Origin: a virus
Virus record (IMG/VR): IMGVR_UViG_3300032898_000001
Span: 31,532-95,531 of that record
DNA length: 64,000 bases
Direction: 5' to 3' (one strand)
Numbering within the stretch: position 1 is the first letter of the stretch; every line of letters starts with the position of its first letter. The position numbers were made by a program, and so were the translations under genes. Shown piece after piece: positions 23,425 to 64,000 of the stretch. The notes beneath the pieces were generated by a model. That model saw only the letters and a program-made list of their open reading frames with translations. It was not told the origin of the DNA and ran no database searches.

Positions 23425-23494
23425 ATCTTTCTAGGACGGTGCTCGATTCAAGCCGTGCCCTGATTATCGACACGGCTAACCGAGTAGAGCGTCG

Positions 23495-23565
23495 CACCTG
23501 GTCGAGGGATCGAACCTCGTTCTGCGCTTTTGGAGAGCGCCGTGCTGCCACTGCACCAACCAGGC
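23495..23565 (-). tRNA. tRNA-Trp(CCA)
   Basis: Cloverleaf; GCGCT-CTCCAAA-AGCGC; TTCGATC T loop. Confidence 0.9.
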
Positions 23566-23684
23566 CCGACCGATCGCTCCCACGTAAACCGGGACGCCGT
23601 GTACCAGGGGCCAGGCCCCCGGCATCGCGCTCGCCTCCCGGACCATCTTCTCCATACCCCATCCCGGCGGTGGTCCGAGCGCGA

Positions 23685-23822
23685 TCAGTCGTCTGTCTCT
23701 CGAGGCTCATCGCAGTCGACGCAAGAGTCGAACCGCTCGCTGTCGATGTTGAACCGGTGCCCGTGCACCTCACACGCGGTCCACTCCGAGAAGTCGATCT
23801 CGTCTCGTTCCTGGGTCTCCAC
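23685..23822 (-). CDS. Small acidic Cys/His protein inside the tRNA cluster
   Basis: GGAGG RBS; METQERDEIDFSEWTACEVHGH..CVDC. Confidence 0.55.
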   Translation of the reverse strand: METQERDEIDFSEWTACEVHGHRFNIDSERFDSCVDCDEPRETDD

Positions 23823-23978
23823 GTTTTGCCTCCTCTCTACGAACCGCGACGAGCCCGAACCAAACCACGTCTCGTCTCGAGGCACCCTGCAACGAATGTC
23901 GCGTTGGGCCGTCCCACCAGGAGGCCGTTCCTCGTCCTCCACGGCATGAGACTGGTCTCGCCGTGCCTCTTCCCTACG

Positions 23979-24049
23979 AGCCGTACCGGGGAATCGAACC
24001 CCGTCCCGCTGGTTGGAAGCCAGATATGCAGCCACTACACCAGTACGGC
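23979..24049 (-). tRNA. tRNA-Gly(TCC)
   Basis: GCCGTAC/GTACGGC acceptor, CTGG-CTTCCAA-CCAG, U discriminator. Confidence 0.88.
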
Positions 24050-24154
24050 ACACGGGACGGTTTCTACCTCCGACGCCTCGGCGTGCATACCCCCATCGAG
24101 CTCGTTACCGATCCCGAACGGTCTAGCTCCGACGTACGTCCCTCGGACCTCACG

Positions 24155-24225
24155 TGCCCCACGCCGGGATCGAACCGGCGACCACTGGATGAAAGCCAGC
24201 GATGTTGCCACTACACCAGTGGGGC
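24155..24225 (-). tRNA. tRNA-Glu(TTC)
   Basis: GCCCCAC/GTGGGGC acceptor; GCTGG-CTTTCAT-CCAGT. Confidence 0.85.
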
Positions 24226-24227
24226 GA

Positions 24228-24338
24228 GAAGAGGGTGACGGGAGTCGAACCCGCCCAGCGGACCGTCGTCCTTTTGGCGTACGCCGTCAGCCCTGACGCT
24301 CCGGGAGTCGAACCCGGATACTGCCGGTTACCCTCTTC
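24228..24338 (-). ncRNA. Double-T-loop structured RNA
   Basis: Closing stem GAAGAGGGT/ACCCTCTTC enclosing two TTCGACT hairpins and three small hairpins. Confidence 0.6.
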
Positions 24339-24340
24339 AG

Positions 24341-24412
24341 CTGACCCGGGAGGACTCGAACCTCCAACCACCTGGTTAACAGCCAGGAGCTCTGCCGTTG
24401 AGCTACGGATCA
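24341..24412 (-). tRNA. tRNA-Asn(GTT)
   Basis: Canonical cloverleaf; CCTGG-CTGTTAA-CCAGG. Confidence 0.93.
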
Positions 24413-24416
24413 TTGC

Positions 24417-24548
24417 GTGGGCCTCTGCCGCTGAGGTACCGATCGTGATCGTTCTCACCGTACCCGGTCTTCCGCCACGCGGTCCTTCGGGTCGTGCTCG
24501 AGCGACCTGCCAAACGATCGAGAGGGACTCGAACCCTCGTCTTCCCAC
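24417..24548 (-). ncRNA. Circularly permuted tRNA-like RNA with a large insertion in the acceptor stem
   Basis: Order GTGGG, T arm (GAGGG-TTCGAGT-CCCTC), TCGATCGT..insert..ACGATCGG, TA, D arm (CCTC-AGCGGCA-GAGG), CCCAC. Confidence 0.6.
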
Positions 24549-24550
24549 CG

Positions 24551-24622
24551 CGCCATCGACGGGAGTCGAACCCGCTGCCACCTGGCTGACAACCAGGCAC
24601 TCTACCGTTGAGTTACGACGGC
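24551..24622 (-). tRNA. tRNA-Asp(GTC)
   Basis: Canonical cloverleaf; CCTGG-TTGTCAG-CCAGG; G discriminator. Confidence 0.92.
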
Positions 24623-24627
24623 CTAGC

Positions 24628-24695
24628 ACGGTAGGGCTGCAACCCGCTGGGGAATCGAACCCCACCCTACCGCTGACGACCGTGGCCACGGTCGT
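24628..24695 (-). ncRNA. Small T-loop-containing structured element
   Basis: GCGGTAGGG/CCCTACCGT stem enclosing TGGGG-TTCGATT-CCCCA; preceded by perfect hairpin CGACCGT/ACGGTCG. Confidence 0.5.
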
Positions 24696-24698
24696 TTG

Positions 24699-24770
24699 TA
24701 CCCCACGCGGGGATCGAACCCGCGTCTCCTGGCTGAGAACCAGGTGTGACTGCCACTGCACCAGTGGGGC
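24699..24770 (-). tRNA. tRNA-Glu(CTC)
   Basis: CCTGG-TTCTCAG-CCAGG; body paralogous to tRNA-Glu(TTC). Confidence 0.85.
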
Positions 24771-40990: not shown

Positions 40991-41526
40991 CGTGCACCCG
41001 GTATTAAGTTGATGACTTTCGGACGGTCATACCATACCGACCGCGGTACCGGCTCGTCCTCAGGTTTTCAGCAGCCTCTTCATCCGTCGGGTCGCGTCCC
41101 AGCGAGTCAGGTGGTAGCTCAGCGGTCGCCACGGGAGGTACCCGGCGTTGTCGGTCTTGGCCAGCTCCCAGCGGAACAGCCGACCCCGGACCCGGAAGAC
41201 GCCGTACGTCGGTTGCGGTTCCATCACTCAACGACCGGAACGGCGATGTAGCTGACGTACGTCCCGTCGTCGGTCCGGACCGTGGCGTGACGGGTCCCGT
41301 GGCTCGACCACGCTAGCTTCTCCGCCTCCGGTCGCAGCTTGAAGTGGTCTTGGATGGCCTGCTTCTCGGCCTCCCAGCGAAACGCGGTCGCTTGACCGAT
41401 GACGGTCAGGTCGGACGGGAGATCGTCTCCCACGGTGGTCACCCTCAGGGTCACCCACGCCTTGGCTCCCTTACCGATGGGCACGGTTGGCTCCTTTCCT
41501 ACGCGCGAGCGCACGCAATGAGATGA

Positions 41527-41588
41527 CCATACCAGTTCAACCGGGTGACGTAAACGACTGTACACGGCGTCTCCCGGCGTGGTATTGT
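41527..41588. promoter_or_regulatory. Divergent promoters; the rightward one drives the Y-RNA/Ro operon
   Basis: +: TGTACA-N18-TATTGT; -: TTTACG-N17-TATGGT. Confidence 0.55.
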
Positions 41589-41655
41589 TCATACCATCAG
41601 GTCGCACGGAGACAGTTCCTCCGGGGGATCCTGGGATCGGGAACCAAGAGCGGTC

Positions 41656-41733
41656 CCCGTCCGGTGCGAGGCACCGCCGCTACTTCTTCACAAAAAGTCT
41701 ACGCGGCTACCGCCACCTTTGACCTCGGACGGG
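41656..41733 (+). ncRNA. Y-RNA-like 1 (short, no tRNA-like domain)
   Basis: CCCGTCCG-GTGCG ... GACCT-CGGACGGG closing stem; TACTTC loop. Confidence 0.7.
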
Positions 41734-41761
41734 TTCGCTGGTACCTTGATAACTACAGACT

Positions 41762-41864
41762 TCTCTCCGGTGCGACGTCGGTCGTTCCTTCTCTTGCCAG
41801 CGGGGTCACTCCCGCAACGGGGACCTAAGAGACCCCACCGACCGGCAGCGAGACCTCGGAGAGA
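41762..41864 (+). ncRNA. Y-RNA-like 2
   Basis: TCTCTCCG-GTGCG ... GACCT-CGGAGAGA; two internal hairpins. Confidence 0.7.
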
Positions 41865-41872
41865 GCACTACT

Positions 41873-42003
41873 TCTCTCTGGTGCGCTGCTCGGCCGTTAC
41901 TTCTGCAAAGAAATCTGAGTTCGAATCTCAGTGACCGGCTAGCCCCGGTCATTAGCCCAAACTGGTATGGGCATCTCGGCTGACAACCCTGATCTCAGAG
42001 AGA
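41873..42003 (+). ncRNA. Y-RNA-like 3 (YrlA type, permuted tRNA domain)
   Basis: TCTCTCTG-GTGCG..GATCT-CAGAGAGA; T arm CTGAG-TTCGAAT-CTCAG, closed acceptor TGACCGG/CCGGTCA, D arm GCCC..GGGC. Confidence 0.85.
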
Positions 42004-42010
42004 CAGATCT

Positions 42011-42137
42011 TCTCTTCGGTGCGACGTGATCACATACTTCGCTGACCAAAAGATCTACCCCAGCGGGAGAGGTTCGACTCCTCTTCAGATCCACAGGCGG
42101 ACGGCCGCCGCGTGATTGCAGCGAGACCTCGAAGAGA
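42011..42137 (+). ncRNA. Y-RNA-like 4 (T arm only)
   Basis: TCTCTTCG-GTGCG..GACCT-CGAAGAGA; AGAGG-TTCGACT-CCTCT. Confidence 0.75.
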
Positions 42138-42144
42138 TCTAAGC

Positions 42145-42292
42145 GTTCTTCTCGGTGCGTAGCTACGAGATACTTCATGAGGAACTGAGGGTTACGGGTT
42201 CGAGTCCCGGACTCCCGATCTAACGGGAGGTAGCTCAATTGGTAGAGCATCAGTATAGCAAGCCTCGTTGCGACCCTGATCTCGAGAAGAAC
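42145..42292 (+). ncRNA. Y-RNA-like 5 (YrlA type)
   Basis: GTTCTTCTCG-GTGCG..GATCT-CGAGAAGAAC; T arm, CTCCCG/CGGGAG, TAGCTCAATTGGTAGAGC D arm. Confidence 0.88.
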
Positions 42293-42296
42293 ACCC

Positions 42297-42368
42297 GCCC
42301 CTGTAGCTCAGCGGGAGAGCGGCTGTCTTACAAGCAGCTGGTCGGTGGTTCGAATCCATCTGGGGGCA
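42297..42368 (+). tRNA. tRNA-Val(TAC)
   Basis: Cloverleaf; GCTGT-CTTACAA-GCAGC; A discriminator. Confidence 0.9.
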
Positions 42369-42369
42369 C

Positions 42370-42515
42370 GGATGCCTCGGTGCGCAGTTGAGACGTTCTT
42401 CGTCTGATAAACGAGTGGTCGTGGGTTCGAATCCCATCGTGGTCCGGGTACCGGATCGCGTAGCTCAACGGTAGAGCACTATGTCCGTCTTGACGACCTC
42501 GATCTCGAGGCATCC
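42370..42515 (+). ncRNA. Y-RNA-like 6 (YrlA type, retains an Ile(GAT)-like anticodon arm)
   Basis: GGATGCCTCG-GTGCG..GATCT-CGAGGCATCC; TCGT-CTGATAA-ACGA, T arm, closed acceptor, D arm. Confidence 0.88.
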
Positions 42516-42529
42516 TCGGTAAGAGCGCC

Positions 42530-42605
42530 AACCCGGTGCGACGACCACGGCCGTTACTTCCTTGTGGTGGATTCCAACACGGTCAGGTCACTTAGATCTC
42601 GGGTT
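42530..42605 (+). ncRNA. Y-RNA-like 7 (short)
   Basis: AACCCG-GTGCG..GATCT-CGGGTT; TACTTC loop. Confidence 0.7.
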
Positions 42606-42621
42606 CTGCGCTCTTACGTGA

Positions 42622-42694
42622 CGCGGGGTGTTGTAATCGGTAACCTGCCGGCCTCATAAGCCGGGCGTTCCGGGTTCGAATCCCGGCCCCGCTA
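42622..42694 (+). tRNA. tRNA-Met(CAT), initiator-like
   Basis: CGCGGGG/CCCCGCT with unpaired C1; CCGGC-CTCATAA-GCCGG. Confidence 0.88.
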
Positions 42695-42738
42695 CCGCGT
42701 AAGAGCACGGAACTCGGAAGACGGAAGAGAGGAACGAG

Positions 42739-44409
42739 ATGGCGGGATTCAACCGCGGCACGGTCAAGGCGACGGGGCGCGGGCCCCTCGCGACCGCGCC
42801 GACCCCGACGGGAACCACCCACGAGGGCGGCCCGGGCTACCAGCGCGACGCGAAGAGCGAGCTCTTTCTGCGTGCGACCACAATGTTCGTGGGCGAGAAG
42901 GCCTTCTACGAGTCCGCGAACGAGGGGGCGAACCGGCTGCGGGTCCTCGTGGCCGAGATCGTGAAGACCGACGAGGGCTGGGAGTGGCTGAAGGGCTTCC
43001 TGCCCTGGCTGCGGTCCGAGGCCAACATCCGCACCGCGGGCATCCTGCTCTCGGTGGAGGCGGTGCACGCCCGGCTGGCCTACGGCCTGCACGGGAACGG
43101 TAACCGGGAGCTCATCTCGCGGGTCCTGCAGCGCGCCGATGAGCCGGGTGAGGTCCTGGCTTACTGGACGTCCCGGTACGGCAAGGCGATCCCGAAGCCG
43201 ATCAAGCGAGGCGTCGCCGACGCAGCCACGCGGCTCTACTCGGAGCGCGGTTTCCTGCGATACGACAGCGACGCCAAGTCCTTCCGGTTCGGGGACGTTC
43301 TGGAACTGACCCACCCGGAGACCGACAAGGTGTGGCAGAAGGACCTGTTCAGCTGGGCGATCACGTCCCGGCAGGAGCGAGAGGGTGCCGAGCCGGCCGA
43401 GACGCTCGAGGCCGTTCGCCTGCGACGTGAACTGTCCCGACTTCCCGCCGAGCGCCGGCACGAGATCGCTCGCGGGGCCCTGGCTGGGGAAGGAACCGCT
43501 CGGAACGACATCGAGCGCGCCGCGGCCGGCCAGTGGGAGTGGGTCATCAGCTGGCTGGGGGACAAGCCCACTAGCGGCAAGGGCCTCACCAAGGCCGAGC
43601 AGTGGCAGCTCATCCTGCCGTCCCTCGGCTACATGGCCCTGATCCGCAACCTGCGGAACCTGGACCAGGCCGAGCTGGACGACGTGACCGCGGGCGGCCT
43701 CGCGACCCGGATCGCGAACCCGGAGCACGTCGCCACGTCGCGGCAGCTTCCGTTCCGGTTCTACTCGGCGTACAAGGAAGCCCCGTCCCTGCGGTGGAGC
43801 CACGCCCTGGACCGGGCCATGAGCCTGTCCCTGCAGAACGTGCCCGAGCTCACGGGCCGGTCCCTGATCCTCATCGACACCTCGGGATCCATGGAGATAC
43901 CGATGTCGAACCGGAGCGACCGGACCCGGGTGGAGGCCGCGGCGATCTTCGGCCTGGCATTGGCCCTGAAGAACCCGGAGAGCGTGGACGTATACGGCTT
44001 CGCGTCCGGAGAGTTCAAGGTCACCGGCGTGGACCGCGGCCTGAGCCTGCTCAAGGCCGTGGAGGCGTTCATCAGCCAGGTGGGCCGAGTCGGTCACGGC
44101 ACGGACATCCACGGGGCGGTGCAGCGTCAGTTCGTGGCAGGTCGCCACGACCGCGTGTTCATCTTCACGGACATGCAGACCGTGGGGACTTCGGGGTACG
44201 GTTACCGGAACAACACCATCGCCGAGCTCGTCCCGGCGAGCGTCCCGGTGTACGGTTTCAATCTGGCCGGCTACCAGCACTCGGCGATGCCGGTCGGGGA
44301 GGGCAACCGCCACGAGCTCGGTGGTCTCGGTGACGGCACGTTCTCGTTGATCCCGCAGCTCGAGGCCGGGACCACCGCGCGGTGGCCGTGGGAGACCACC
44401 GACGAGTGA
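42739..44409 (+). CDS. Ro60-like TROVE + vWA RNA-binding protein (Rsr homologue)
   Basis: THEGGPGY..KSELF, LQRADEPGE, KPIKRGVADA, DVLELTHP, MALIRNLRNL, SRQLPFRF, vWA MIDAS IDTSGSM, FTDMQ. Confidence 0.95.
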   Translation: MAGFNRGTVKATGRGPLATAPTPTGTTHEGGPGYQRDAKSELFLRATTMFVGEKAFYESANEGANRLRVLVAEIVKTDEGWEWLKGFLPWLRSEANIRTAGILLSVEAVHARLAYGLHGNGNRELISRVLQRADEPGEVLAYWTSRYGKAIPKPIKRGVADAATRLYSERGFLRYDSDAKSFRFGDVLELTHPETDKVWQKDLFSWAITSRQEREGAEPAETLEAVRLRRELSRLPAERRHEIARGALAGEGTARNDIERAAAGQWEWVISWLGDKPTSGKGLTKAEQWQLILPSLGYMALIRNLRNLDQAELDDVTAGGLATRIANPEHVATSRQLPFRFYSAYKEAPSLRWSHALDRAMSLSLQNVPELTGRSLILIDTSGSMEIPMSNRSDRTRVEAAAIFGLALALKNPESVDVYGFASGEFKVTGVDRGLSLLKAVEAFISQVGRVGHGTDIHGAVQRQFVAGRHDRVFIFTDMQTVGTSGYGYRNNTIAELVPASVPVYGFNLAGYQHSAMPVGEGNRHELGGLGDGTFSLIPQLEAGTTARWPWETTDE

Positions 44410-44446
44410 TAGTGCCACTCGATGATCTGGCTGTTATAATCTCACC

Positions 44447-45410: not shown

Positions 45411-45730
45411 CCGTGATATGAACCTGTTACTTTTTTCGCTCTAGGGGTTTACAAGTGCCGGGCGCCTGGTTAGGTTCAGAGCATGCGCTCAACCGGGTGT
45501 TGGCAGACCTCATTGGGACGAGATATACTATGTCCTAGGGAGCTCGTGTCTTCAGACCCTGGTTGGGCGCCATCAGCGCCCGTGCCGGTACGCTCCTTTA
45601 CCCCGATCAACGGCCCCTTCCTGGCCCACGCGACCGGCACCGTCACCTCGATCCTCGCGCCAACCGGCGCGGTCGGTGACACGGCGGACCTAGCCCATCA
45701 CCGGGCGCGAAACCAGGAGCGTGTGAGACC

Positions 45731-46456: not shown

Positions 46457-46582
46457 AGTACTCGGAACGGAACCCGGTTGCCAGCCCACACGCCGGGTTC
46501 CGTCCCGTCCACCGAACCTGGACCCACCGTATGATAGAGGGGTACCGCACCGCTCTGACCGCTAAACCTCGTGGAGGTCACC

Positions 46583-47116
46583 GTGCCCGCGTATGACGAC
46601 GACGCCACGTTCCTGATCCCCCTGCCCAACTCGCGGTCCGTCACGCGGAAGGGCCGGAGCCGGGACGCCGAGGCCGCTCGCCTCAAGGCCCTGGGCTGGA
46701 CCCTCGACGAGATCTGCGATCACCTGGAGCTCGGTCCGGACACGACCCGCGCCGCGGCCGCCATCAAGCGCGGCCTGGCCTCCATCGTGCGGTTCGCGAC
46801 CGACGAGCACCGGGAGATGGAGCTTCAGTCCTACGACGAGCTCGAGGCCGAGTGCTGGCGGTTGCTCCGGGTCAACCACGTCCTGGTCGATCGCGGCCAG
46901 GTCGTGCGGTCGGACACCGGGGAGCCCATCACCGATGACCGGTTCGTGCTCGAGACCGTCGACCGCATCCTGAAGATCAAGGAACGGCGGGCGCGGCTCC
47001 TCGGGATCGACGCCCCGTCCCGGTCCGAGGTCCTCAACATCGACTCGATCGACGCCGAGATCGCGAAGCTCGAGGCCGAGATCGAGAGCACTCGCGTCCC
47101 GCTGGCGGAGCAGTGA
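46583..47116 (+). CDS. Putative terminase small subunit
   Basis: AARLKALGWTLDEIC (HTH), DRILKIKERRARLLGIDAP; upstream of TerL. Confidence 0.75.
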   Translation: MPAYDDDATFLIPLPNSRSVTRKGRSRDAEAARLKALGWTLDEICDHLELGPDTTRAAAAIKRGLASIVRFATDEHREMELQSYDELEAECWRLLRVNHVLVDRGQVVRSDTGEPITDDRFVLETVDRILKIKERRARLLGIDAPSRSEVLNIDSIDAEIAKLEAEIESTRVPLAEQ

Positions 47117-63237: not shown

Positions 63238-63721
63238 GTGGCCGCACTTCTCGAGGCGATGGAGCAGGCCGCTCCCGCCGCCAACCCGGACGCGGCTCAG
63301 GCCGACCTGGTCGGCGTGGCCCAGCGCTACTCCACCACCGGTGACGCCATCAAGGCGTCCATGGCGACCCTGGTCAAGGGCGCCGGCATGGCCAAGATCG
63401 GCGGCAACACGCCGCTGAGCAACGAGCGCGACATCACCGTTCGCGCCCACCAGGCCACGCTCGACCTCCGTACCTCCACCTACCAGGGCATCAACGACCG
63501 CCAGTCGGTCGTCAAGTCCATGAACTCCGGCTTCCTGAACCAGTTCGGGAACCTCAAGACCGCCCTCACCACCCCGTCCCTGGGAGAGCAGCTCTCCCAG
63601 CTCGTCGGGATGCTTCCCGGTGGTACCGAGGCCCTGAAGTCGTTCACCGCCGGCAACCTGGGAATTGGCTCGGTCTACGGCCTGGTGCCGTTCGACCTGC
63701 TCGCACCTTCTCGTCTGATCT
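63238..63721 (+). CDS. Major capsid protein, exon 1
   Basis: Follows protease/scaffold with AAGGA RBS; GLVPFDLLAPSRLI, then the frame is broken exactly where intron motifs start. Confidence 0.8.
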
Positions 63722-64000
63722 GAATTTGGGGACGGATCCTCGTTCGGTAACGAACGTGTAAAACTCCGAGAATTGCTGGAACGTCCTGCTAGACCTCAGC
63801 ACCACAACGTGGGGTGAAAACCCGAGCGTGATGGTTTGAAAAGATTGAGGGTAGGGAAAATCAGCAGCCGAGCCCGCCTGATTCGTTCGACGGGAAGGTT
63901 CAGAGACTATGTACGGAGCTCCTCAAATGAGGATGAAGATATAGTCCGATCTGCATGGAAATATGCAGAACTGAGCAGAAATGTCTCAGTCCATCGTATT
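63722..64000 (+). mobile_element. Group I intron (3' end outside window)
   Basis: P AATTGCTGGAA, Q AATCAGCAG, R GTTCAGAGACTA, S AAGATATAGTCC; P1 GATCT/GGATC with U.G; P3 CTCCG/CGGAG; P7 GACTA/TAGTC; P8 and P9 hairpins. Confidence 0.95.

What the first reader, a model, noticed from the sequence alone, without database searches (positions are those of the whole stretch)
41656..44409. Ro60 locus with an expanded array of seven diversified Y-RNA-like genes
Seen: seven units share one frame, a unit-specific closing stem then GGTGCG ... GA(C/T)CT and a pyrimidine loop (TACTTC-like). The stems differ in sequence yet all pair, so there is covariation within the genome. The cargo differs: none (1, 7), two hairpins (2), T arm only (4), full permuted tRNA domain (3, 5, 6). 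tRNA-Val and tRNA-Met are interleaved and the Ro60/TROVE gene follows directly. Known: bacterial Ro60 (Rsr) binds Y RNAs encoded beside it, YrlA mimics tRNA, and some actinophages carry this system. Inference: one Ro ring with seven exchangeable RNA adaptors, a modular RNP toolkit for RNA decay, repair or decoying. The number and diversity of units is the unusual part.
Basis: partly seen in the sequence, partly recalled or inferred. Interest (0 to 1): 0.88.

Follow-up and report, generated by a model that had tools for sequence, protein, structure and literature searches.

The report
Phage Ro60 gene with seven Y RNAs
A 95-kb wetland phage of actinobacteria carries a Ro60 RNA-binding ring protein gene preceded by seven different Y-RNA-like genes and two tRNAs; the system is a known kind, and the copy number is high but not unique.

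Summary
Seven co-oriented units (41656-42617) share one handle: a unit-specific closing helix, GGTGCG, then a TACTTC-like hexamer 17-20 nt on, and GAYCT before the 3' strand. The handle pattern occurs 8 times in the window against 0.59 expected. Two covariance models built only from other genomes recover all seven and nothing else comparable. U3, U5 and U6 are tRNA-like (YrlA type). U4 has a T arm only. U1, U7 and U2 fit a model of simple hairpins. tRNA-Val, tRNA-Met and an intact TROVE/vWA Ro60 gene follow.

The handle is the standard one of actinomycete and actinophage Ro60 loci. I found 464 distinct closed units in about 166 loci, and the helices covary strongly.

The claim of an unusual number holds only partly. 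Two to four units are typical, also in bacterial chromosomes. Five to eight recur in other ~100-kb phages, and one has eight. I found no paper describing such arrays. Published work reports two Y RNAs for M. smegmatis, S. Typhimurium and phage phiLo, and at least two for D. radiodurans. Earlier notes of this scan report similar arrays on other DNA.

Binding to Ro60, processing into discrete RNAs and the adaptor function are all inferred. This is a new member of a known kind, of moderate interest.

The parts
41459..41655 (+). Intergenic leader between a divergent minus-strand ORF (41228-41458) and unit 1. This is the presumed promoter region of the array/Ro60 transcription unit.
   Evidence: ORF list and sequence. 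The sigma-70 consensus scan found no promoter here, so the promoter is inferred only.
41656..41733 (+). Unit 1: simple Y-RNA-like hairpin (YrlB type), 78 nt. It has an 8-bp closing helix, GGTGCG, TACTTC and a 3' GACCT.
   Evidence: Independent model R2: 47.5 bits, E 7.9e-8 over the whole window.
41761..41865 (+). Unit 2: handle plus a cargo of about 47 nt, predicted to form one or two small hairpins. The loop hexamer is TCCTTC.
   Evidence: R2: 28.5 bits, E 6.4e-4, with the cargo skipped as a local insert.
41873..42003 (+). Unit 3: handle plus a permuted tRNA-like domain (T arm, 7-bp acceptor-like hairpin, D-like arm).
   Evidence: R1: 47.3 bits, E 1.4e-9, full length. R2: 25.9 bits. No Rfam YrlA hit at E<=10.
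42011..42137 (+). Unit 4: handle plus a T arm and a further GC-rich hairpin, with no D arm or acceptor-like stem.
   Evidence: R1: 22.7 bits, E 0.0015. Handle and T arm align; the acceptor and D positions are skipped. Fold.
42145..42292 (+). Unit 5: handle plus a full tRNA-like domain (YrlA type).
   Evidence: R1: 87.2 bits, E 2.4e-19. Rfam YrlA: 30.8 bits, below the gathering score of 69.
42297..42369 (+). tRNA-Val (TAC). It lies 4 nt after unit 5 and abuts unit 6.
   Evidence: ARAGORN. Rfam tRNA: 65.1 bits.
42370..42515 (+). Unit 6: handle plus a tRNA-like domain that also has an anticodon-arm-like hairpin (7-nt loop with GAT). The loop hexamer is TTCTTC.
   Evidence: R1: 80.9 bits, E 8.5e-18. 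Rfam YrlA: 35.1 bits. Rfam tRNA: 21 bits over 42382-42437. The arm is 76% identical to the same part of the neighbouring tRNA-Val.
42518..42617 (+). Unit 7: simple Y-RNA-like hairpin (core 42530-42605, 6-bp closing helix), extended by an outer 10-bp stem.
   Evidence: R2: 35.8 bits, E 2.1e-5.
42622..42696 (+). tRNA-Met (CAT) with a 1-72 mismatch, 42 nt upstream of the Ro60 start.
   Evidence: ARAGORN. Rfam tRNA: 49.9 bits, first acceptor pair flagged as non-standard.
42739..44409 (+). Ro60/Rsr orthologue (556 aa): TROVE domain plus a C-terminal vWA domain with a DxSxS MIDAS motif.
   Evidence: Pfam TROVE: 42.6 bits against a cut-off of 23. VWA_2 is weak at 20.7 bits. PHROG 850 RNA-binding protein: E 8e-43. 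Thermus phage phiLo Ro60 (9KOP): E 1e-22. D380, S382, S384, T455 and D478 are invariant among 7 phage Ro60s.

Best explanation
The segment is a phage Ro60 ribonucleoprotein operon. Seven paralogous Y RNA genes and two tRNA genes are probably transcribed as one precursor together with, or just ahead of, the Ro60 mRNA. No terminator separates them. Spacers are 0-7 nt, apart from 27 nt between U1 and U2. Cutting at the tRNAs by RNase P and the tRNA 3'-end enzymes, and trimming back to each closing helix, would release the units. Each RNA offers the same handle to the phage Ro60 ring. The handle consists of a closing helix, GGUGCG opposite GAYCU, an inner helix of 5-9 bp, and then UACUUC at a fixed distance. 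The interior differs between units: a plain pyrimidine-rich loop (U1, U7), small hairpins (U2), a T arm (U4), or a whole permuted tRNA-like domain (U3, U5, U6). By analogy with characterised Ro60-Y RNA particles, the handle would gate the ring. The variable part would tether the ring to different partners, such as host PNPase or tRNA-binding enzymes, re-directing host RNA decay or surveillance during infection. What is shown: the anatomy, the family membership, the covariation and the linkage to Ro60. What is inferred: co-transcription, processing, Ro60 binding and partner recruitment.
For: The handle occurs 7 times in 1 kb against 0.59 expected in the whole window. All seven units are found by models built only from other genomes, and nothing comparable is found elsewhere in the window or the 95.5-kb phage. 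The Ro60 gene is intact. R1 finds 160 matches in 84 sources, all on the Ro60 strand, nearly all just upstream of the gene and a few (phage Atuin, GiJojo) downstream. In the alignment of the best 150 matches (147 distinct sequences) 95.9% of cells pair, against 63% in shuffles and at most 48% when partners are slid. There are 977 double-change cells. Among 464 distinct closed units, the spacing from GGTGCG to TACTTC is 17-18 nt in 73%. This argues that both motifs belong to one recognition surface. In published work, Y RNAs are encoded beside rsr. M. smegmatis YrlA and YrlB come from one precursor, and YrlB has only a T arm. One RNA per species is a hairpin with a pyrimidine-rich loop. The 5' motif resembles GGUCCGA, which Xenopus Ro60 contacts (PMC4201824). 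Phage phiLo Ro60 binds two upstream Y-like RNAs and host PNPase (PMC12135203).
Against: There is no expression or binding data, and no RNA run holds this phage. No consensus promoter was found upstream. The Rfam YrlA model does not reach its threshold. The exact published motif GNCGAA is absent; the units have GCGA, GCGC or GCGU. Inner-helix specificity within the window was not demonstrated. The phage lacks RtcB and a CCA-adding enzyme, so there is no RNA-repair context as in Salmonella. Nothing identifies the partners of the cargo modules.
Confidence: 0.8

Rival explanations
1. tRNA-mimic decoy or counter-defence set. The tRNA-like and anticodon-arm-like cargos would act mainly as baits for host tRNA-targeting nucleases or tRNA-modifying enzymes. 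Ro60 would serve chiefly to stabilise them or to deliver the bound enzyme to decay.
For: Three units mimic tRNA, and U6 has an anticodon-like loop. In other loci the hairpin after TACTTC often has a 7-nt loop of anticodon-loop form with different triplets. tRNA finders and annotators mistake some units for tRNAs. The arrays sit inside phage tRNA clusters.
Against: Four of the seven units have no full tRNA mimic. The same handle and tRNA-like units are present in bacterial chromosomes, where an anti-defence role makes no sense. There is no defence or anti-defence gene context. The idea is purely inferential.
Confidence: 0.1
2. Polyvalent or cis-acting RNA. The array would not be cut into seven RNAs. 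It would act as a long structured leader that binds several Ro60 rings, either as a beads-on-a-string scaffold or as an autoregulatory 5' UTR controlling Ro60 translation.
For: Spacers are only 0-7 nt after U2. There is no terminator between the array and Ro60. A strand at 42607-42617 can pair either upstream or downstream around tRNA-Met. phiLo Ro60 forms higher-order RNPs.
Against: In Quantum, BRock and VanLee, a hairpin followed by a T run that looks like a terminator separates the array from Ro60, by my reading of the sequence. This would uncouple array and mRNA there. In Atuin, units lie on both sides of Ro60 and are interleaved with tRNAs. M. smegmatis YrlA and YrlB are processed to discrete RNAs.
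Confidence: 0.07
3. Decayed tRNA genes, or repeats without function, in a tRNA cluster.
For: T and D arms resemble neighbouring tRNAs. U2-U5 look like a duplicated two-unit block.
Against: The permuted arm order, the invariant handle at fixed spacing, the compensatory changes in the helices, and the conservation beside Ro60 across at least 160 loci are incompatible with neutral decay.
Confidence: 0.03

Closest known systems
Mycobacterium smegmatis Rsr with YrlA and YrlB (Chen et al. 2014, PMC4201824)
   Same: Actinobacterial lineage. The RNAs lie upstream of rsr on the same strand and are processed from one precursor. One RNA has a permuted tRNA-like domain with a 7-bp acceptor-like stem, and one has a T arm only. 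An ACUUC-containing stretch follows the Ro motif in the published probe sequences.
   Different: Two RNAs there, seven here, with four cargo classes and two true tRNAs interleaved. This locus is phage-borne. There is no experimental evidence here.
Thermus phage phiLo Ro60 with Yrl1 and Yrl2 (PMC12135203; PDB 9KOP, 9L5Y)
   Same: A phage-encoded Ro60 with Y-like RNAs directly upstream. The protein is detectably homologous (E 1e-22). That system binds host PNPase.
   Different: Two RNAs there, with a CGAA motif in a bulge. The host phylum differs. The window's RNAs carry the GGUGCG/UACUUC handle and tRNA-like cargo.
Salmonella YrlA/YrlB and Deinococcus Yrn1/Yrn2 with Rsr and PNPase (RYPER); Rfam RF02553
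   Same: Modular RNA: a Ro-binding stem plus a tRNA-like effector module, encoded within 4 kb of rsr.
   Different: The Rfam model scores only 31-35 bits here against a threshold of 69. The phage units have 18-25 nt, including UACUUC and a small hairpin, where canonical YrlA has about 4 nt before the T arm. There is no rtcBA repair operon.
Vertebrate Y RNAs (hY1, hY3, hY4, hY5)
   Same: Several paralogues share one Ro60-binding stem and differ in the loop. The 5' motif GGUGCGA differs by one base from GGUCCGA, and the 3' UUGACC/UGAUCU resembles UUGACU.
   Different: Vertebrate Y RNAs are Pol III genes with no tRNA-like domain and are not arrayed beside the Ro60 gene.

Membership tests
Ro60/Rsr protein (TROVE + vWA ring) | TROVE domain above the Pfam gathering score | tested here: met
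   PF05731 scores 42.6 bits against a cut-off of 23. The same domain is found in the whole phage record.
Ro60/Rsr protein (TROVE + vWA ring) | C-terminal vWA domain with MIDAS residues (DxSxS, T, D) | tested here: met
   DTSGS is present in the sequence. D380, S382, S384, T455 and D478 are invariant in 7 phage Ro60s. Pfam VWA_2 scores only 20.7 bits, below its cut-off of 27.
Ro60/Rsr protein (TROVE + vWA ring) | Ring fold and Y RNA binding | not testable with these tools
   Only sequence homology to the solved phiLo Ro60 was obtained (E 1e-22). No structure was predicted.
Bacterial/phage Y RNA (general) | Encoded within about 4 kb of, and on the same strand as, the Ro60 gene | tested here: met
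   All seven units lie 120-1080 nt upstream on the + strand.
Bacterial/phage Y RNA (general) | 5' and 3' ends pair into a stem that carries the Ro-binding motif (GNCGAAN0-1G, resembling GGUCCGA) | tested here: inconclusive
   The closing helix is present in 7 of 7 units. The motif is GGUGCG(A/C/U), one substitution from GGUCCGA. The exact GNCGAA is absent. Binding was not tested.
YrlA (tRNA-like Y RNA) | Permuted tRNA-like domain: T arm, acceptor-like hairpin, D arm | tested here: met
   Met for U3, U5 and U6 (R1: 47.3, 87.2 and 80.9 bits). Not met for U1, U2, U4 and U7.
YrlA (tRNA-like Y RNA) | Rfam RF02553 gathering score (69 bits) | tested here: not met
   U5 scores 30.8 bits and U6 35.1 bits. 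U3 has no hit at E<=10. Related GenBank phages also stay below threshold, with a best score of 47 bits.
YrlB/Yrn2-type Y RNA (long hairpin, small pyrimidine-rich loop) | Simple hairpin with the handle and a pyrimidine-rich loop | tested here: met
   U1 and U7 match model R2, built from 51 such units of other loci (47.5 and 35.8 bits).
Any Y RNA | Stable discrete RNA that co-purifies with Ro60 and depends on it | not testable with these tools
   Only one DNA run holds the sequence, and no RNA holder is listed.
tRNA genes (rival for the units) | Canonical cloverleaf called by tRNA finders | tested here: not met
   ARAGORN and Rfam call only tRNA-Val and tRNA-Met in the segment. U6 gives a partial tRNA match of 21 bits, below 29.

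The most novel reading that the evidence does not exclude
The handle-tagged cargos would form a programmable set of tRNA and RNA-fragment mimics. Large actinophages would use them to point one Ro60 ring, and through it host exoribonucleases, at several different tRNA-interacting enzymes or tRNA-targeting defence nucleases. Array size (2 to 8) would then track the breadth of host systems being countered. On this reading UACUUC, at a fixed 17-18 nt from GGUGCG, is a second, undescribed half of the Ro60 recognition site.
Probability: 0.12. Interest if true: 0.8.

Novelty: new member of a known kind. Interest (0 to 1): 0.45.

Why it matters
Ro60-Y RNA particles are conserved from bacteria to humans, yet what the variable Y RNA modules recruit is largely unknown. 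This phage offers seven natural variants on one invariant handle, next to the protein that should bind them. That makes it a compact system for separating handle function from cargo function. The survey also shows that the handle (GGUGCG, 17-18 nt, UACUUC, GAUCU) finds the non-tRNA-like Y RNAs that Chen et al. 2014 say eluded bioinformatic discovery. It further shows that arrays of 3-8 are common in actinomycetes and their large phages, and I found no paper saying so. Several GenBank phage annotations, both small ORFs and some tRNA calls, overlap such units and are probably wrong.

Tried and rejected
- Rfam at gathering threshold found no Y RNA. In E-value mode it gave only sub-threshold YrlA hits.
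- Megablast of the locus against GenBank phages found no match.
- A single-protein pattern scan of IMG/VR gave only one locus. The alignment-based scan was needed.
- The MAFFT alignment A1 of mixed simple units mis-registered the TACTTC motif and was not used for a model.
- The sigma-70 scan found no promoter upstream of unit 1. The terminator-like hits inside the array are just unit hairpins.
- Sequencing runs: no RNA holder is listed, only one DNA run that may be the source sample.
- RtcB and the CCA-adding enzyme family are absent from the phage. There is no RNA-repair operon context.
- The cross-unit control for the inner helix was not discriminating: cognate mean 6.9 bp against non-cognate 5.3 bp, with a non-cognate maximum of 9. 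I therefore claim within-window covariation only for the closing helix.
- The PHROG label 'RNase E' for the ORF at 46571-47116 has no Pfam support, and I dropped it as context.
- Two reviews (PMC10870794, PMC6047535) are not held. The published maximum number of bacterial Y RNAs per locus therefore rests on PMC4201824 and PMC12135203 only.
- Counts by regex plus 8/8 closure are approximate. They miss U7 and give about 0.2 false hits per locus on the opposite strand.
Full report
CONTEXT. The window is part of a 95.5-kb IMG/VR virus record with direct terminal repeats. A wetland metagenome run holds the sequence. The nearest Ro60 proteins are in uncultured ~110-kb phages (55-57% identity). The next nearest are in Streptosporangiales and other actinomycetes (about 50%) and in Gordonia, Streptomyces and Arthrobacter phages (about 40%). 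The host is therefore very probably an actinomycete.

THE OBSERVATION. GGTGCG occurs seven times between 41663 and 42535 on the + strand. In each case the preceding bases, together with the first G of the motif, pair with bases directly after a GACCT or GATCT further on, forming a 6-10-bp helix. A TACTTC-like hexamer lies 17-20 nt after the start of GGTGCG. A second helix of 5-9 bp can be drawn between these elements. The composite 5' pattern is found 8 times in the 64-kb window on both strands, against 0.59 expected from shuffles. Seven of the eight are the array. Spacers are 27 nt between U1 and U2 and 0-7 nt otherwise. tRNA-Val abuts unit 6, and tRNA-Met lies 4 nt after unit 7. The ORF at 42739-44409 has a TROVE domain (Pfam 42.6 bits), a weak vWA match and intact MIDAS residues. 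It matches PHROG 850 and the solved Thermus phage phiLo Ro60. The description is accurate.

INDEPENDENT TESTS. The Rfam YrlA model gives only sub-threshold matches: U5 at 30.8 bits and U6 at 35.1 bits, against a gathering score of 69. I therefore built two covariance models that contain no window sequence. R1 comes from ten tRNA-like units of five GenBank actinophages. In the window it matches U5 (87.2 bits), U6 (80.9) and U3 (47.3) from the first to the last model position. It matches U4 (22.7 bits, E 0.0015) through the handle and T arm only. In the whole phage genome there are no further matches. R2 comes from 51 simple units of other viral and bacterial loci. It matches U1 (47.5 bits), U7 (35.8), U2 (28.5) and U3 (25.9). 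So all seven units are recovered by outside models at E below 0.01, with boundaries equal to those I derived from the helices.

FAMILY-LEVEL SUPPORT. R1 finds 160 matches in 84 sources. All are on the Ro60 strand. Nearly all lie in the kilobase upstream of Ro60, and a few (phage Atuin, GiJojo) lie downstream. The alignment of the best 150 matches holds 147 distinct sequences. In it, 95.9% of cells pair, against 63% after shuffling and at most 48% when partners are slid. Of 24 pairs, 23 show double changes. The alignment is fitted to the model, which inflates these figures somewhat. An unfitted RNAalifold run on 13 sequences already gave compensatory changes in 20 of 23 pairs. A script found 464 distinct closed units in the loci. 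Of these, 298 have GGTGCG, 348 have TACTTC, GATCT is the commonest 3' motif, and 73% have a spacing of 17-18 nt. The window therefore uses the consensus actinobacterial handle. Within the window, the closing helices of U2-U5 are near-identical CU-rich paralogues that differ by compensated substitutions. U1, U6 and U7 are unrelated in sequence. U2/U4 and U3/U5 share 3' ends, which suggests duplication of a two-unit block. A crude control did not show specificity for the inner helix.

HOW UNUSUAL IS SEVEN? GenBank relatives have several units. Quantum has 3. BRock, VanLee and Rabbitrun have 4 each. GiJojo has 5. Atuin has 6, lying on both sides of Ro60 and interleaved with tRNAs. A strict count (pattern plus an 8/8 closing helix) scores the window at 6. 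By this count, 88 viral and phage loci range from 0 to 7 with a mode of 2. Eighty bacterial loci range from 0 to 6 with a mode of 2-3. Contig IMGVR_UViG_3300036794_000053 (L039) has eight contiguous units at 1967-2955, directly before Ro60. The nearest relative, L009, has five units, four tRNAs and the same order of simple unit, tRNA-Met, Ro60. Seven is thus near the top of a continuous distribution and is not a singular expansion. The larger arrays sit mostly in ~100-135-kb phage contigs.

WHAT IS KNOWN. Chen et al. 2014 (PMC4201824) reported YrlA-like RNAs beside rsr in 254 bacteria and 22 phages, and at least two Y RNAs in each characterised species. One is tRNA-like and one is a hairpin with a pyrimidine-rich loop. 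M. smegmatis YrlB has a T arm only. YrlA and YrlB come from a single precursor. YrlA with a 7-bp acceptor stem is cleaved by RNase P. The 5' motif resembles the GGUCCGA contacted by Xenopus Ro60. The authors state that the non-tRNA-like RNAs eluded bioinformatic discovery, and they suggest that extra Y RNAs widen the range of Ro60 complexes. Phage phiLo Ro60 binds two upstream Y-like RNAs and host PNPase (PMC12135203). My three searches found no paper describing arrays of more than four, or the fixed GGUGCG-UACUUC spacing. Two reviews could not be read. Earlier notes of this scan describe comparable RNA arrays beside Ro60-like genes in many other phages. These are unchecked AI notes, but they mean the scan has met this theme before.

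MECHANISM. The most likely reading (0.8) is that the seven units are genuine Y RNA paralogues that bind the phage Ro60 through the shared handle. The fixed spacing suggests that UACUUC is part of that recognition surface or sits at the mouth of the ring. The variable interiors would recruit different partners. Co-transcription with Ro60 is suggested because no terminator lies between the array and the gene. In Quantum, BRock and VanLee, by contrast, a hairpin followed by a T run separates the two, by my reading of the sequence. Processing is suggested by the abutting tRNAs and by the M. smegmatis precedent. All functional steps are inferred. The phage has no RtcB or CCA-adding enzyme, so the Salmonella-type repair-operon context does not apply. 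The rivals are a tRNA-mimic decoy set (0.10), an unprocessed polyvalent or autoregulatory leader (0.07), and decayed tRNA genes (0.03).

VERDICT. The locus is a canonical actinobacterial-type Ro60-Y RNA system carried by a phage, with an above-average but not unique number of diversified Y RNAs. It is a new member of a known kind, of moderate interest.

Noticed in passing
window 42518-42528, 42607-42617, 42697-42708: The strand at 42607-42617 can pair with the upstream copy of GTAAGAGC, closing unit 7 with a 10-bp outer stem. It can also pair with a downstream copy just after tRNA-Met, giving a stem of about 10-11 bp that encloses the tRNA. The MFE fold of 42516-42712 prefers the downstream pairing. 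This could be a processing stem, a switch, or a scar of insertion.
   Followed up: partly
window 42622-42696: tRNA-Met(CAT) has a C1xU72 mismatch at the top of the acceptor stem and a GC-rich anticodon stem, which are initiator-like features. Its D stem also has non-standard pairs. A tRNA-Met occupies the same position before Ro60 in the nearest relative (L009 2778-2852).
   Followed up: no
L008 2105-2176 (VanLee tRNA-Arg tct); L005 2173-2247 (GiJojo tRNA-Arg cct); L003 1807-2164 (Rabbitrun gp93, gp94); L018 835-906; L085 2567-2634; L024 2239-2316: Annotated or ARAGORN-called tRNAs, including a 'tRNA-SeC', and small hypothetical ORFs coincide with strong Y-unit matches (R1 up to 109 bits). They are probably mis-annotations of the 5' halves of Y RNAs.
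   Followed up: partly
L019 648-1411 (IMGVR_UViG_2563367078_000003): Three of five units in one phage use GGTCCGAAG, matching the GGUCCGA core that Xenopus Ro60 contacts in vertebrate Y RNAs. The other two use GGTGCGAAG, so two handle variants coexist beside one Ro60 gene.
   Followed up: no
window 41761-42292: Units 2-5 show an A-B-A-B pattern. U2 and U4 share GGTGCGACGT and a 20-nt 3' end that is 95% identical. U3 and U5 share an ACCCTGATCTC 3' end. This suggests duplication of a two-unit block followed by cargo divergence.
   Followed up: partly
window 42402-42434 and 42460-42477 versus tRNA-Val 42325-42357 and 42303-42320: The anticodon-arm-to-T-arm stretch of unit 6 is 76% identical to the matching part of the adjacent tRNA-Val, and its D arm is 89% identical. 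The cargo may derive from a neighbouring tRNA.
   Followed up: no
window 63707-63968: A group I intron match lies near the end of the window (Rfam RF00028, 69.2 bits, above threshold).
   Followed up: no
window 23494-24770 (minus strand): A second cluster of six tRNA genes (Trp, Gly, Glu x2, Asn, Asp) lies 17 kb from the array. No Y-like units score there above E 0.2.
   Followed up: partly
window 44412-44440 and 45500-45529: Two strong sigma-70-like promoters (10 of 12 matches, one with an extended -10) lie just after Ro60 and before the Rpf-like gene. They contrast with the lack of any such match in front of the array.
   Followed up: no
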